From NCBI RefSeq assembly GCF_032062105.1, contig NW_026938938.1:744001-808000 (forward strand): a DNA stretch of 64,000 bases, read 5' to 3'. Position numbers: made by a program. Each line of letters begins with the position of its first letter. Positions within the stretch are counted from its first letter, which is position 1. Origin of the DNA: Saccostrea cucullata. Lineage: Eukaryota. Positions 25,601-46,600 of this stretch are shown piece by piece.

Positions 25601-28600
25601 GGTACTCAATATTATATTGTCATTTCCTAAAGCTTGTAACTTCTAGTGCAAGATATTCTGAGTAATCATGATTTTTATATTTCTTTAACTATAGTGGTTA
25701 AACATACCTGGAACTCTGGAGGCATCACTGGTGTCAGTTACCCCTGTCACTGAAGAAAAGAAGAGAAGGGTTACTTTAAAATTTAAATACAAAATAAAAT
25801 ATTTTTCATAAGGGACCTGAGTATTCCTAAAACCGTCTACCTGATTTATAATGGATGGTTGCCCACGCTCATTACCTGATTTATACCAGGATGGTTTGCC
25901 CACTCTCATTCAATACCTGATTTATAACAGGATGGTTTGCCCACACTCATTTAATACCTGATTTATAACAGGGCAGTTTGCCCACTCTCATTACCTGATT
26001 TATAACAGGGCAGTTTGCCCACCCTCATTACCTGATTAATAACAGGGCAGTTTGCCCACTCTCATTACCTGATTTATAACAGGATGGTTTGCCCACTCTC
26101 ATTTAATTATAACAGGGCGGTTTGCCCATTTTCATTACCTGATTTATAACAGGGCGGTTTGCCCACCCTCATTACCTGATTTATAACAGGGCAGTTTGCC
26201 CACTCTCATTACCTGATTTATAACAGGGCAGTTTGCCCACCCTCATTACCTGATTTATAACAGGATGGTTTGCCCACTCTCATTTAATTATAACAGGGCG
26301 GTTTGCCCATTTTCATTACCTGATTTATAACAGGGCGGTTTGCCCACCCTCATTACCTGATTTATAACAGGGCAATTTGCCCACTCTTATTACCTGATTT
26401 ATAACAGGGTGGTTTGCCCACTCTCATGGTGTTGGGCTTCATGACCCCGATATCATCTACACACCAACACAGAGATCCCTGACACTGCATCTCAGCAAAC
26501 CGTCCGTCGTCCAAACAATCCGGCACAAAGTTACCATTCACCACAGGCGGGACTTTATCAGCTGTGAAAATGTCAATACAGGAACATTAATGACGAAACT
26601 GCTAGCTCAAAATGATACAGTATAATATTCAGCATTAATTTCTAAATGTATCATTCTTTTTGTGATTCAGTTACATATAAATTGCATCTATTGTAAATTA
26701 GTTGTATTTTCCAGAGTTGTTGAAAACTTTTTCAGATAGCCAGTCATTCGGACTGACAAGAAAACAAACTAAGCTGCTCCTCTTTTTTTTTTTGTCAGTC
26801 CGAAATAGTAAGTCGCAAAATGGAAAAAAGCATAACATTTATTCATTTTATAACACATCTATTTAATAAATAATGTTGTTAATAAAACAAAATTCAGTCT
26901 CCATTTCCAAGTACTCTTCCGTTTTCTTTAATTTTGCATTCATAACAATACGAGATACAATTATACCACCACTTTTTGGCAGATGACAATGCTAACTCAG
27001 TACAGTCAATGTAATTTTTTGAAACATTTATACATTTTGGAATTATATTAACCTAGAAAATGGGTCTAAAAATTCTTTGCATTGATAATCTGATAATAAA
27101 GATATCAACACGATCGGAGAAAAAACGAAAATCCTGGACAGTCGGAAATACTAGGTTAAATGCTTTCTCCACCTGTGCTTGAATTCTTTCTGTTGAAATT
27201 TTTCATATTTAGCTCGTCTTTATCTTAAGTTTTTCTTTAATATGTTTTCTACCTAGCTCGGCCCCAGTTGTGAATTTAATAGGTCACGAGAACCATGCTA
27301 GTTTCGCTTTCATTTACAGCCTCGATCTCGTTTAAAGAAAAAATATTACGTAATCGCATATAAGGTACGATAATTAAGATGGGAAATGCACAAAACAAAA
27401 AACTTTAACCAAATAAGGAGCCGGTCATTTGGACCGACATTGATAGCATTTTTACCGGTCATGCGAATTTTAAGCCGGTTTTGCTGGCATGACTGACAGT
27501 TACCCACAACTCTGATTTTCCCCATATCCTTCATGTAAAATAGGTTATAAAAGCTATTTTCTGTAATCACAGGGTATTGATGAACAACCTATTTTATATT
27601 GTTTTAAAGGTAATCTTATTATTCTTGTATACAAATAAAACATAATGGCAATACAGTTAACAGTTTTTAAAAAGTCTAATGACACAATCACCTTATTTAT
27701 TAGGATAAGGATTACTTCTGAGCAAATTCCTAAGTTCATGAGGAAAATAGTATGTCTTTGAGTATTGTGTCATCTGACCTTGAGCAATAACTTCATCAAA
27801 TTAAGAAGAGAGGTTTGACTTACAGATACACTTTGCCTCAGTGTCACTGACAGGTAAACAAATGGTGCCTGCTGCACATCGGATTTTCTGAAATGAAAGT
27901 AAAAAGCATGCATAACTGCTTTCAATTGCTAAAAATCTCAACCTAAGAGTTTTAAATAATAATATTGCCTACATTTGAGTATATTTACATTTTTTATGCT
28001 TGGTCAAAAAACTAGCATTATGTTTTCTTTCAACAGGGAAGAAGAAAGAAATAATTGATGGCCTTTTAAGTTTAATTCCAGTCACATTCAGCAATGTTTG
28101 GCTGAAAATTTAGTAAAAATTAGCTGAATGGTTCTGTACAAAAAGGAAAGTTTATGGGCTGTATTATGTATATATACATACAGACATTCATAATGTACAG
28201 GTCAAAATGTTCATTGAGCCTATTGTTTGAAATAAGAATGAAATATCTTACCTCACATGGAGCAGCCTGCACATCTCTAGAGCCTGTAAGAAATCAGGTT
28301 GACAATACACAAAAGCATTAGAATTTCAGTATCTCAATCATTGATATTAAGCTCTCTTTCTGACCAATTTCAGATCAAACAATTATTGTATTTATGCTCA
28401 TAAATCTTTTAGTTTGTATGTGATTGTTGTGTACATAATAAAGCTTCATTCCTTTAACAGTACATGTATCTTAATTGTTCCATTGACAAGATAATCATTA
28501 TTAATACTTACTACAGGTACTGAGACACTGTGTGAGGGTTAAGAAACGGTTCCTGTTCCCTTCACATCCCCCATAGTAAAACTTCTCACACTTGTTGCTG

Positions 28601-43600: not shown

Positions 43601-46600
43601 GTGTCCTGTAAAAGTTACAATATATATTTTATCAATGTCCTGTAAAGTGTACAAGATATTCTATCTATAGTGTCCTGTAAAGTGTACAAGGCCATTCTAG
43701 TATTATCTACTGACATTTCCTGAACTTTTCATTAATAATAGGAAAATACCAAAGGATTATAAGAAATTGCCAATTTTCAATAATAGTATAGGGAAAATCA
43801 ATTTATATTAAGCTAGTGAACTAAATCTTGCAACATACATGCATTAACAAAGAATATTTGCCTAGATTTCAAGCAACATTTTATATAAGAGTTGTAAATA
43901 ATTGGAAAATATACAGTTATTGAGAAAGCCACTTTTCTTCAAAGTTTTATAATGGATTAATAACAAACCTCCTTTCCCAAAGGATAGCATTTTGGTTCAT
44001 TACCTTAATTTCTGAATTATTTAAGAATATATACATGTACTAAGAAACAAAGAAATTCTTTCAACTTGAAAGTGACAATTTATTTCACAAAATTTTCCTT
44101 TCAATCCCATCACTTTACTTTTTCCTTCTTTATTGGTTTTGGTCATACCTGGCTTGTTAAATGCTTTAGGACAACATGTTCCCTTGTTACAGAATTCTGC
44201 CACAGAGCAGGATTCATCTGAAGCACAGCTTTTTATCTCAGAAGGGTTTCCACCAGGACATTTGGAATCTAAAATCAATATCATATAGATTATTGTGAAG
44301 TGTGCTTAACTCATGCATACATATTAGAAGGTTGTTAAACAAACCTTAAACACTTGAAAAATTACATATTACCAGTACAATTTATTACAATGTTTTAAAT
44401 TTCCAATATGTCTGAATCAAAAAAAAATCCAAACAAACCAAGAATATCACCTTTATTAATTGCTTTAGGACAACATATTCCTTTATTACAGAATTCTGTC
44501 ACAGAGCAGGACTCATCTGAAGCACAGCTCTTTATCTCAACAGGGTTTCCACCAGGACATTTGGAATCTAAAATTATTACAAATGATACATGAATTCCAA
44601 TGATGAAATACTATTCAAAAATTCAAACTGATCTTATAGAGAGTTTTCAGTAGACCCAAATTAACAAGAGTTATTTCCCGTTGGCCGCCATCTTGGTGGT
44701 CAACCTTGTAATTTTCCCTCTTTGTCCTACCAAATATAAGAGGGTGTTTTAACAGAAATATTTTAGGGGAAATCTTTTTGGAATAAAAATTATGAAATAA
44801 AGGAGGCTCTAACAAATATATATTTTTAAGAAAAACAATGCTTACCACCCAACAATTGCCAGTATAAAGAGTTAAAGTTGCAATTGGTTGAATAATGAAG
44901 GAATATGAGCATGTTGACCCCCAATATGGCAGCCAACGGGAAATAACTCTTGTTAATTTGGGTCTACTGAAAACTATCTATTGCTGACCTTAAATATGAT
45001 TAGATATTGAAGTCTTGAGTGAATTAAAAATGTAATGTAAATGAAATAACTGAAAACATAGGTAATCAAAGATTACGAAGCTCACCTTGACGAATGTTAT
45101 CAGTGTAAGTAATGCAAATCTCATATCATATTTTCTTAATATCTAGTATTTATCCCAACAACAATATTCTTGCAAGTTGTGTTTAACCCCTTACAAGGCA
45201 TATACACATTTCTACGCATGTAGCGTGAAAATCATGTATAGTGTAAACAAATATTCACAACTTTGTTTAATACTGCAGATATCAAGGACTTCAAGTTCAT
45301 TGGGATTAATCTGTTCCCAAAACTATAACCTGGTCTCTTGTTTGGAAAATATAGGTCACATTCAGTATCCGAAGCAAGTCTTGTAGTGTCCATCCCTAGA
45401 TGCAAGTTTGGTTCAGGTAGGGCTTATAGTTACTTGGGAATAAAAATATGGGTCAGATCCAGCAACTGGAGCAAGTCTGGTAGTGTCCATCACTAGATAC
45501 ATCATCCATGCAAGTTTGGTTCAGGTAGGGTTTATAGTTACTTGGGAATGAAAATATAGGTCAGATCCAGCATCCGAAGCAAGTCTGGTAGTGTCCATCC
45601 CTAGATGCATCTGAAGCAAGTCTGGTAGTGTCCATCCCTAGATGCATCTGAAGCAAGTCTGGTAGTGTCCATCACTAGATACATCATCCATGCAAGTTTG
45701 GTTCAGGTAGGGTTTATAGTTACAGTAAAACACGGTTATAGCGAAGTCCTTGGGACCTGTGAATTTAATTCGCTATGTCCGTAATTCGTTATATCCGTAT
45801 AACGAATTCGTATAACCATGTATAGCGAATTCGCAATATGCATGTTTTCCTTCAAGTGTTACTATCAAATATGTTAGGGAAACAAATATTACAAAACATA
45901 CCTTCGATTACTAAGGTTTTATTATGAACTGAATTTTATATACAAATGCTGAGAGAAAATAAAGTCAGTTCAATTATTCAAATTTTGAAATCTTTGAAAG
46001 TTCGTTATAAAAGATGTAAAATTCATTATATTTAACCTCAACGGGAATCAAAATCAGTTCGCTATATCCGTAAATTCGTTATATCCGAGTTCATTATAAC
46101 CGTAAAATTTTACAAAGATTTGTTAATAATTTTGCCGGGGACCAAGAAAAACTTCGCTATATCCGTTAATTCGCTATATCCGTGTTCGTACTAAACGTGT
46201 TTTACTGTACTTGGGAATGAAAATATAGGTCAGATCCAGCATCCGAAGCAAGTCTGGTAGTGTCCATCCCTAGATGCATCTGAAGCAAGACTGGTAATGT
46301 CTATCCCTAGATGCATCATCCATGCAAGTTTGGTTCAGGTAGGTCTTATAGTTCCTTGGGAATGAAAATGTAGGTCAGATCCAGCATCTGAAGCAAGTCT
46401 GGTAGTGTCCATCCCTAGATGCATCATCCGTGCAAGTTTGGTTCAGGTAGGTCTTATAGTTCCTTGGGAATGAAAACGTAGGTCAGATCCAGCATCCGAA
46501 GCAAGTCTGGTAGTGTCCATCCCTAGATGCATCATCCATGCAAGTTTGGTTCGGGTAGGTCTTATAGTTCCTTGGGAATGAATATGTAGGTCAGATCCAG

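What the first reader, a model, noticed from the sequence alone, without database searches (positions are those of the whole stretch)
25838..43690. Three independent minisatellites in one gene each amplify a genuine splice junction
Seen: (a) a 37-bp unit equal to the exon end plus donor, ~15 copies; (b) a 77-bp unit equal to acceptor plus exon start, 9 copies; (c) a 36-bp unit equal to the acceptor with the first exon bases, ~50 copies. In each case the terminal unit is the functional junction and the array extends only into the intron. A 20-bp donor duplication also sits at TERT exon 3 (5841-5880). Inference: either a junction-targeted duplication process (splicing- or R-loop-linked slippage), or survivorship of the only tandem duplications an exon can tolerate. 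Either way it creates VNTR-tunable decoy splice sites.
Basis: partly seen in the sequence, partly recalled or inferred. Interest (0 to 1): 0.7.

Follow-up and report, generated by a model that had tools for sequence, protein, structure and literature searches.

The report
Minisatellites copying splice junctions into introns
Three unrelated tandem repeat arrays in one invertebrate-type protease-inhibitor-like gene each start at a real exon edge and fill the neighbouring intron with copies of its splice site, a curiosity already described in amphioxus ("mirages") and in several human genes.

Summary
A 32-exon minus-strand gene (23219-49681) encodes WAP, Kunitz and thyroglobulin-1 modules. It carries three unrelated arrays, and the exon-side unit of each contains a splice junction:
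- (a) 16 x 37 bp at a donor.
- (b) about 9 x 77 bp at an acceptor, now split by a 1315-bp transposon.
- (c) about 52-55 x 36 bp at an acceptor, overlapping the exon by only 2 nt.

They hold 13, 8 and 33 decoy sites, and every one would bring an in-frame stop into the mRNA. A 19-bp two-copy duplication also spans a donor-like site at 5840-5877. Its TERT label rests on one sub-threshold Pfam hit nearby.

This kind is already in print: amphioxus "mirages" at both boundary types, and human F7, IFI6, CBS, LMNB2, PDGF and ABCA7. In ABCA7, repeat length affects splicing.

The best reading is ordinary local tandem duplication. It was tolerated because the exon-proximal copy keeps the intact junction, and the arrays then grew by multi-unit exchange.

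Under a uniform model, all three seeds spanning a junction has probability 0.003-0.02. That is suggestive but post hoc. Breakpoints are not fixed relative to the junction and G-richness is inconsistent, so a junction-targeted process is not supported. No transcripts, orthologues or reads could be checked.

The parts
23219..49681 (-). Host gene: 32 modelled exons encoding Cys-rich modules (WAP, Kunitz, thyroglobulin type-1, unnamed 6-Cys modules) and a hydrophobic transmembrane-like exon at 23219-23307
   Evidence: Searches give the exon model: canonical AG/GT sites and nearly all exons phase 1-1. One search gives Pfam hits on single exons.
26394..26561 (-). Thyroglobulin type-1 exon. Its last 34 nt plus the intron's GTA form unit 1 of array (a).
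   Evidence: PF00086, 2e-12, profile positions 20-67 of 67, ending at the Cys inside unit 1. In one search that Cys aligns with the closing Cys of the paralogous TY exon at 40333-40458.
25838..26427 (-). Array (a): 16 units of 37 bp. It holds 14 CAG|GTA donors (1 authentic and 13 decoys) and a 181-bp five-unit higher-order repeat.
29468..29611 (-). WAP exon. Its first 48 nt plus 29 intron nt form the terminal unit of array (b).
   Evidence: PF00095, 1.2e-6.
29564..29875 (-). Array (b), exon-proximal block: 4 units of 77 bp, 96% matches.
29876..31190 (.). 1315-bp insertion with perfect 12-bp terminal inverted repeats and a 7-bp flanking direct repeat. It splits array (b).
   Evidence: One search gives the coordinates and shows that removing the insert restores a continuous unit. 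In one search the 12-mer occurs exactly twice in the window, inverted, at the two ends.
31191..31552 (-). Array (b), distal block: 4.8 units of 78 bp, 83% matches.
41566..41691 (-). WAP exon whose acceptor is the last unit of array (c).
   Evidence: PF00095, 4.7e-12.
41690..43690 (-). Array (c): 55.5 copies by TRF, 52 units by segmentation, unit 36 bp. It holds 34 ACAG|G acceptors (1 authentic and 33 decoys).
42973..43126 (.). 154-bp insertion inside array (c), bounded by 11-bp perfect inverted repeats (MITE-like). No target-site duplication was resolved.
5840..5877 (-). Two-copy 19-bp duplication made of 8 exon-like nt and 11 intron nt. It spans the donor of a 51-nt exon-like ORF (5870-5920). 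The second copy reads ATA|GTAAGA.
   Evidence: The gene identity is not established.

Best explanation
These are boundary-spanning minisatellites of the type called 'mirages'.

Origin (inferred): in each case an ordinary local tandem duplication, by replication slippage or unequal exchange, happened to have a seed segment straddling an exon-intron boundary of a gene with many short introns.

Why it is tolerated: the exon-proximal copy still carries the complete exon end or start and an intact splice site. If that copy is used, the mRNA is unchanged. The extra copies sit in the intron as decoys.

Growth (shown): the arrays then expanded and turned over like any minisatellite, partly by duplication of multi-unit blocks. 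They are old enough to have been hit by transposable elements.

Site choice (inferred from precedent): the spliceosome picks the exon-proximal site by position. This was shown experimentally for the identical pseudo-donors of human F7 intron 7, where only the most upstream donor is used. Any use of a decoy here gives a transcript with a premature stop, which would be expected to be degraded.

Persistence (inferred): selection keeps the functional edge unit intact. It may therefore keep seeding new copies, which would help junction-anchored arrays persist and grow.
For: Anatomy:
- arrays and units.
- the exons are real domain modules with phase 1-1 junctions. The exon part of unit (a) encodes the closing Cys of the thyroglobulin-1 domain, so the exon sequence is the source and the intron copies derive from it.

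Independence: scores between units are no better than shuffles. No copies occur elsewhere in the window.

Tolerance: all 13 of 13 decoy donors in (a), 8 of 8 decoy acceptors in (b) and 33 of 33 in (c) add an in-frame stop. Only the exon-proximal site keeps the frame open.

Minisatellite dynamics:
- A 181-bp five-unit block in (a) is duplicated at 178 of 181 identity.
- A four-unit block in (c) is present three times at 95% mean column identity.
- The exon-proximal block of (b) is 96% matched against 83% for the distal block.
- Units of (c) nearer the exon are slightly closer to the terminal unit (rho 0.29, p 0.04, 52 non-independent units).

Age: a 1315-bp element with inverted-repeat ends and a target-site duplication sits inside (b). 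A 154-bp element with inverted-repeat ends sits inside (c).

Short ancestral introns (91, 443 and 494 nt; gene median 266) make junction overlap likely for each seed, at 0.12-0.42.

Breakpoints vary: 34, 48, 2 and 8 exon nt.

Precedent:
- PMC1557585: F7, IFI6, CBS, LMNB2 and PDGF.
- PMC3087553: mirages at both boundary types that do not disturb splicing.
- PMC5954066: ABCA7.
Against: There are no transcripts, so use of the exon-proximal sites is inferred only from frame and domain integrity.

Under a uniform model of tolerated seeds, all three local arrays spanning a junction has joint probability 0.0033 (all 31 introns) or 0.021 (the 25 introns of 700 nt or less). A fourth small case lies in a neighbouring gene. 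Pure chance plus survivorship is therefore somewhat strained, although the case was selected post hoc from a scan.

For (c) the exon overlap is only 2 nt. The data cannot say whether the acceptor was amplified or whether a pre-existing array supplied the acceptor.

Copy-number polymorphism and assembly correctness were not checked.
Confidence: 0.72

Rival explanations
1. A junction-targeted mutational process, linked to splicing, R-loops or transcription, preferentially duplicates exon-intron boundaries. The clustering at junctions would then be a mutational bias and not survivorship.
For: Three of three locally derived arrays in the gene span a junction, against a uniform expectation of 0.12-0.42 each (joint 0.003-0.02). 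A two-copy case sits at 5840-5877. The amphioxus literature calls the generating mechanism unclear and the phenomenon 'possibly general' there (PMC3087553).
Against: Breakpoints are not fixed relative to the cleavage site: 34, 48, 2 and 8 exon nt. Coding-strand G skew is +0.18, +0.42 and -0.09 with no G run longer than 4, so there is no common R-loop signature. Other small tandem repeats in the window do not sit on junction-like sites; for example, 325-390 lies about 25 nt beyond a donor-like site. The case was selected post hoc, and a single window cannot carry an enrichment claim.
Confidence: 0.1
2. The arrays are selected regulatory devices. Decoy sites would titrate splicing factors or divert a copy-number-dependent share of transcripts to nonsense-mediated decay. 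Alternatively, each unit of (b) could act as a 15-nt phase 1-1 micro-exon followed by a 62-nt mini-intron, adding in-frame linker repeats.
For: In (b), 9 of 9 units keep both TAG|GA and a GTAA donor-like motif exactly 15 nt downstream, and the 15 nt have no stop in frame. Decoys are locally as good as the authentic sites: in (c) three units are identical to the terminal one. The ABCA7 precedent shows length-dependent splicing effects (PMC5954066).
Against: There are no transcripts. The same GTAA motif lies inside the authentic WAP exon, where it must be read through to encode the conserved K-A-G-x-C start of the domain. Splice motifs are lost in 2 of 16 units of (a). In (c) the span holds 34 ACAG|G sites for 52-55 units, consistent with no constraint. 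Conservation among units is explained by recent block duplication.
Confidence: 0.07
3. For array (c) only, the order of events is reversed. An intronic minisatellite existed first and grew up to the exon, and its last unit now supplies the branch site, pyrimidine tract and AG. The junction was donated by the array and not amplified from a pre-existing junction.
For: Only 2 exon nt (GA) are shared with the unit. The unit is a strong hairpin former: 144 nt of four units folds with z = -6.9, and 0 of 200 shuffles fold as well. That is the kind of sequence prone to slippage wherever it lies.
Against: An array edge landing within 2 nt of an exon start by growth alone is itself unlikely. The present structure is equally explained by a seed that spanned the acceptor.
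Confidence: 0.08
4. The arrays are assembly artefacts.
For: Nothing specific points this way. Tandem arrays are a known weak point of assemblies, and one amphioxus mirage was reported as mis-assembled in a genome draft (PMC3087553, legend of an additional file).
Against: Units are diverged (74-96% matches). They are organised in higher-order blocks. Arrays (b) and (c) are interrupted by inserted elements, one with a clean target-site duplication.
Confidence: 0.03

Closest known systems
[quoted passage not shown]
   Same: The tandem units span an exon-intron boundary. Both donor-side and acceptor-side cases occur. Many units keep AG/GT signals. Regular splicing is reported as undisturbed. Units are 10-160 bp. 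Homogenisation occurs within the array.
   Different: The gene and, apparently, the organism differ; the window's species is unknown. Array (c), with about 52-55 units, is much longer than the 3-6 units described for BflGb6. Splicing and polymorphism were not tested here.
Human F7 intron 7 37-bp VNTR (PMC1557585, abstract, introduction and discussion read)
   Same: The first monomer spans the exon-intron boundary, so the authentic donor is followed by pseudo-donors. The unit length is 37 bp, as in array (a). Only the most upstream donor is used.
   Different: F7 has 4 exon nt plus 33 intron nt and 5-9 copies. Array (a) has 34 exon nt plus 3 intron nt and 16 copies. The present first donor context in (a) is a chimera of GTA plus exon-derived bases, and the original intron context now follows the last unit.
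Human ABCA7 intron 18 25-bp VNTR (PMC5954066, passages read)
   Same: The array starts at the exon's donor. Use of the next unit's donor retains one unit and gives a frameshift and a premature stop. Array length is associated with splicing changes, which is the 'VNTR-tunable decoy' idea.
   Different: The ABCA7 unit starts at the GT and contains no exon bases. Its effects were measured, whereas nothing was measured here.
Human IFI6 (6-16), CBS intron 13, LMNB2 and PDGF intron 4 minisatellites, as listed in the introduction of PMC1557585
   Same: The first monomer spans a donor junction, and 10-26 reiterated pseudo-donors follow.
   Different: [quoted passage not shown] Here every decoy would introduce a stop.
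Internal tandem repeats at exon-intron boundaries of human genes in segmental duplications (PMC2812944, abstract and passages read)
   Same: Minisatellite-size units lie at exon-intron boundaries and alter or threaten the splicing pattern.
   Different: Those cases were found by comparing paralogues and often create new introns.

Membership tests
Boundary-spanning minisatellite ('mirage', F7-IVS7 type) | Head-to-tail array of several units of minisatellite size | tested here: met
   16.0 x 37 bp; 4.1 + 4.8 x 77/78 bp; 55.5 x 36 bp.
Boundary-spanning minisatellite ('mirage', F7-IVS7 type) | The edge unit contains an exon-intron boundary of a real exon, including its splice site | tested here: met
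   The exons are Pfam-supported TY and WAP modules with phase 1-1 AG/GT junctions. The exon share of the unit is 34 nt (a), 48 nt (b) and only 2 nt (c).
Boundary-spanning minisatellite ('mirage', F7-IVS7 type) | All other units lie in the intron and the reading frame of the exon is undisturbed | tested here: met
   Only the exon-proximal site leaves the frame open.
Boundary-spanning minisatellite ('mirage', F7-IVS7 type) | The exon-proximal site is the one used in mature mRNA | not testable with these tools
   No transcript data are available. This is inferred from frame and domain integrity.
Boundary-spanning minisatellite ('mirage', F7-IVS7 type) | Copy-number polymorphism or instability (VNTR behaviour) | not testable with these tools
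   Only one haplotype is available. Higher-order block duplications show past turnover only.
WAP / Kunitz / thyroglobulin type-1 multidomain (protease-inhibitor-like) gene | Pfam domains above the gathering score on the exons | tested here: met
   WAP 29.1 and 46.4 bits (cut-off 20.8); Kunitz_BPTI 69.3, 69.5 and 38.5 bits (cut-off 21); Thyroglobulin_1 46.7 and 49.6 bits (cut-off 20.6). 3 of the 10 ORFs sent had no family.
TERT (label given to the exon at 5.9 kb) | TEN, RNA-binding or reverse-transcriptase domain match above threshold | tested here: inconclusive
   1 of 10 ORFs (1037-1195, minus strand) hit TEN_TERT at E 0.002 and 18.8 bits, below the cut-off of 25. The ORF holding the duplicated donor had no hit; the T-motif and B'-motif patterns gave no match in the first 20 kb, and the motif-1 pattern gave one isolated match (plus strand, 5368). 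Searches found nothing.

The most novel reading that the evidence does not exclude
Exon-intron junctions are genuine hot spots for minisatellite birth or persistence outside cephalochordates. One route would be a mutational bias. Another is that the selected edge unit acts as an undecaying master copy that keeps re-seeding the array. In that case, gene-dense, short-intron genomes would systematically accumulate decoy-site arrays whose copy number tunes productive splicing. This gene, with three arrays and 54 decoys, would be an extreme natural test case.
Probability: 0.12. Interest if true: 0.6.

Novelty: new member of a known kind. Interest (0 to 1): 0.3.

Why it matters
The locus is a clear natural example of how a spliceosome must pick one site among up to 34 locally identical ones. 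Donor-side and acceptor-side arrays sit in the same gene, which is useful for minigene tests of positional site choice. It does not open a new category. Boundary-spanning minisatellites, their silence in normal splicing and their length-dependent effects are already published. What remains open is whether junctions are enriched for such arrays beyond what selection and intron length predict. I found no genome-wide test of this in the searches. This window alone cannot answer it.

Tried and rejected
- Whole-frame translation of 1-9999 for Pfam gave an error because of stop codons. I used single ORFs instead.
- TERT identity: motif scan of the first 20 kb gave nothing useful. The PDB sequence search with ORF 1037-1195 gave 0 hits at E<=10. 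The ESM Atlas gave no usable hit. The label stays unverified. A resemblance of the 51-nt exon to the TEN domain is recalled only and comes from no call.
- Dispersed-repeat origin of the units is rejected. No copies lie outside the arrays.
- A common origin of the three units is rejected.
- An R-loop signature is not supported. G skew is inconsistent and there are no long G runs.
- RNA structure as the discriminator of authentic versus decoy sites does not work. The unit of (c) folds strongly (z -6.9) and (a) and (b) weakly (z -2.6 and -2.4, with 4 of 200 shuffles as good). However, the hairpin that covers the acceptor in (c) is equally present in the authentic unit.
- Lower-threshold TRF in the gene found only short AT-rich two-copy repeats and no further junction arrays.
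- No target-site duplication was resolved for the 154-bp insert in (c).
- The original mirage paper (PMC117041) is not held. One literature query failed on syntax and one returned nothing.
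Full report
SCOPE AND LIMITS. The window has no N. GC is 0.28-0.39 in 2-kb windows. I do not take it for human, because base composition and gene content look invertebrate. No orthologue, transcript or read evidence could therefore be brought in. Exons were searched one at a time. Supplementary files of papers were closed. The mirage alignments and trees in the additional files of PMC3087553 may bear on the comparison, and I could not see them.

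THE ARRAYS ARE REAL. Tandem Repeats Finder reports four features:
- (a) 25838-26427, period 37, 16.0 copies, 86% matches (also period 181, 3.2 copies, 91%).
- (b) 29564-29875, period 77, 4.1 copies, 96%; and 31191-31552, period 78, 4.8 copies, 83%.
- (c) 41690-43690, period 36, 55.5 copies, 74% matches, 11% indels.
- A two-copy 19-bp repeat at 5840-5877, 94% matches.

Copies of each unit with up to 3 mismatches are confined to the arrays: 12, 5 and 18 matches. None of 100 shuffles gave a match. The three units are unrelated. Best local alignment scores were 6, 5 and 7, against shuffle means of 7.4, 6.8 and 7.5.

THE HOST GENE. All three arrays lie in one minus-strand gene. From stop-free frames and splice-site scoring I modelled 32 exons between 49681 and 23219.
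- Nearly all exons are phase 1-1 with canonical AG and GT sites.
- There are 31 introns, median 266 nt.
- Pfam on single exon ORFs (7 of 10 ORFs matched a family) gives Thyroglobulin_1 at 26362-26586 (2e-12) and 24296-24637.
- It gives WAP at 29442-29621 (1.2e-6) and 41501-41713 (4.7e-12).
- It gives Kunitz at 29097-29432, 28501-28731 and 25023-25304.
- Other exons encode unnamed six-Cys modules, and one encodes a hydrophobic membrane-like segment (23219-23307).

ARRAY (a), DONOR SIDE. The exon 26561-26394 ends ...AATCAG and the intron starts GTA.
- Unit 1 (26427-26391) is 34 exon nt plus those 3 intron nt.
- The exon part encodes the end of the thyroglobulin-1 domain. The Pfam match runs to the last profile position at the Cys inside unit 1. 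That Cys aligns with the closing Cys of a paralogous exon. The exon sequence is therefore the source of the repeat.
- 14 of 16 units keep CAG|GTA. Two units lost it through one change that was then copied with its block.
- The original intron context (GTAGAC...) now follows the last unit at 25841. Today's first donor reads GTAATA, and the internal ones mostly GTAATG. Positions +4 onward are exon-derived bases.
- Without the intronic copies the intron would be 91 nt, like its neighbours of 133-205 nt.

ARRAY (b), ACCEPTOR SIDE. The WAP exon starts at 29611.
- The unit is 29 intron nt (pyrimidine-rich tract plus TAG) followed by the first 48 exon nt.
The insertion has perfect 12-bp terminal inverted repeats and a 7-bp flanking direct repeat. 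Removing it restores one continuous unit. The 12-mer occurs exactly twice in the window, inverted, at the two ends. So one array of about nine units existed before a transposable element landed in it.
- All 9 units keep the acceptor. All 9 also keep a GTAA donor-like motif 15 nt downstream.

ARRAY (c), ACCEPTOR SIDE. The WAP exon starts at 41691.
- The last unit supplies the 34 nt upstream of the exon. It shares only the first two exon bases, GA.
- Segmentation gives 52 units. The array span holds 34 ACAG|G sites, one of them the authentic acceptor. Three units are identical to the terminal one.
- A 154-bp insert with 11-bp inverted ends interrupts the array at 42973-43126.

CONSEQUENCES OF DECOY USE. 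Every decoy would damage the message.
- The 13 decoy donors of (a) add 37 to 553 nt, each containing an in-frame stop.
- The 8 decoy acceptors of (b) bring a stop by the 23rd codon after the decoy acceptor.
- The 33 decoy acceptors of (c) bring a stop within 3-4 codons, even where the added length is a multiple of three.
- Only the exon-proximal sites keep the frame open. This is my basis for calling them the functional junctions. It is an inference and not transcript evidence.

DYNAMICS AND AGE.
- Array (a) contains a 181-bp five-unit block duplicated at 178 of 181 identity.
- Array (c) contains a four-unit block present three times at 95% mean column identity.
- In (b) the exon-proximal block is more homogeneous than the distal one, 96% against 83%.
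- In (c), units nearer the exon are slightly closer to the terminal unit: rho 0.29, p 0.04, on 52 non-independent units.
- This is ordinary minisatellite turnover. The two inserted elements and the divergence among units argue against an assembly artefact, but reads were not available.

CHANCE AND MECHANISM. I asked how often a random seed of the observed length would straddle a junction. The condition was that its tandem duplication leaves the mRNA intact, meaning the seed lies wholly in an intron or spans one junction. Intron lengths were taken with the arrays collapsed.
- Using all 31 introns the probabilities are 0.12, 0.24 and 0.12, joint 0.0033.
- Using only the 25 introns of 700 nt or less (long introns probably hold younger insertions) they are 0.23, 0.42 and 0.22, joint 0.021.
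- In the gene span, TRF at score 50 or more lists only these arrays plus a block at 45400-47152. The units of that block recur at 51695-51992 and 53610-53974 (by eye), so it belongs to a dispersed family.
- Three of three local arrays on junctions is therefore more than a uniform model predicts. The case was noticed post hoc in a scan, however, and one window cannot establish enrichment.

Three observations weigh against a junction-targeted process.
- The breakpoints differ in every case: 34, 48, 2 and 8 exon nt.
- Coding-strand G skew is +0.18, +0.42 and -0.09 with no G run above 4.
- A small array at 325-390 sits about 25 nt beyond a donor-like site without including it.

All three units contain short inverted repeats. 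Unit (c) folds strongly (z -6.9, 0 of 200 shuffles as good). Units (a) and (b) fold weakly (z -2.6 and -2.4, 4 of 200). This may favour slippage, but the hairpin covers the authentic acceptor as much as the decoys, so it cannot explain site choice.

The locus is also prone to duplication at a larger scale. Four near-identical 117-120-nt exons with similar flanks lie at 47739-44149.

My best account is random local duplication, survivorship and positional choice of the proximal site. Possibly the selected edge unit also acts as an undecaying template; that part is inference.

WHAT IS KNOWN.
- The introduction of PMC1557585 states that several genes hold minisatellites whose first monomer spans an exon-intron boundary. 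It lists IFI6 (6-16), CBS, LMNB2, PDGF and F7. In F7 a 37-bp unit is repeated 5-9 times and only the most upstream donor is used. The paper's experiments support an oriented positional choice.
- PMC3087553 describes 'mirages' in amphioxus Adh3 and globin genes. [quoted passage not shown] Many units have AG/GT signals, splicing is not disturbed, and the mechanism is unclear.
- PMC5954066 shows an ABCA7 VNTR that begins at the exon 18 donor. Retention of one unit gives a premature stop, and length-dependent splicing changes are reported.
- PMC2812944 reports internal tandem repeats at exon-intron boundaries in human duplicated genes.
- The kind, both boundary types and the 'tunable decoy' idea are therefore in print.
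- I found no genome-wide enrichment test in the searches. Most subscription journals are not in that library.

THE 'TERT' ITEM.
- The duplication at 5840-5877 is real. It consists of 8 nt of a well-formed 51-nt exon-like ORF (5920-5870, strong acceptor and donor) plus 11 intron nt. The second copy reads ATA|GTAAGA.
- The ORF holding it matched no Pfam family at E<=1.
- Of 10 minus-strand ORFs scanned, one (1037-1195) hit TEN_TERT below threshold: E 0.002, 18.8 bits against 25.
- PDB and Atlas searches gave nothing.
- The patterns for the T and B' motifs gave no match in the first 20 kb. The motif-1 pattern gave one isolated match on the plus strand at 5368.
- The label is possible but unproven, and the exon number cannot be checked.

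VERDICT. This is a new, well-developed example of a known kind, and interest is modest.

Noticed in passing
window 44149-47739 (minus strand): There are four near-identical 117-120-nt exons encoding the same 38-39-residue six-Cys module (47739-47623, 47421-47305, 44567-44451, 44268-44149). Three of them share nearly the same flanking intron bases. This is a tandem exon duplication in the same gene. The module matched no Pfam family at E<=0.01.
   Followed up: partly
window 45400-47152, 51695-51992, 53610-53974 (and a similar-looking block at 2588-4092): Satellite-like arrays with 108/146-bp units recur at several places in the window. One sits inside an intron of the inhibitor-like gene. The 2588-4092 units carry a short GGTCAC...GTGACC palindrome. 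This is probably a transposon-associated satellite family (by eye).
   Followed up: no
window 29876-31190: A 1315-bp element with 12-bp perfect terminal inverted repeats and a 7-bp target-site duplication is inserted into array (b). The family was not identified, and no second copy is present in the window.
   Followed up: partly
window 41692-41835 (minus strand): Each 36-bp unit of array (c) forms a hairpin whose 3' arm is the acceptor (C[C/T]TGTA ... TACAGG). Four units fold with z = -6.9. This may explain why this sequence expanded so far.
   Followed up: partly
window 29564-29611 and each unit of array (b): A consensus-like donor motif (G|GTAAGG) lies 15 nt inside the WAP exon and in all 9 units. 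Each 77-bp unit therefore looks like a 15-nt phase 1-1 micro-exon plus a 62-nt mini-intron. Compared with the paralogous WAP exons, this exon carries a four-residue N-terminal extension that covers most of these 15 nt.
   Followed up: partly
window 20186-20663 (plus strand): ORFs with EGF-like, calcium-binding-type Cys patterns lie on the opposite strand just downstream of the inhibitor-like gene. This is a separate neighbouring gene and was not analysed.
   Followed up: no
window 6717-6770 and 7195-7289: Two short arrays share the same ~11-bp unit in opposite orientation, about 430 bp apart. They are possibly subterminal repeats of a mobile element in an intron of the TERT-like region.
   Followed up: no
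window 391-675 (minus strand): A Lys/Arg-rich ORF lies downstream of the weak TEN_TERT hit. It had no Pfam match. It is compatible with a disordered linker, but its function is unassigned.
   Followed up: no
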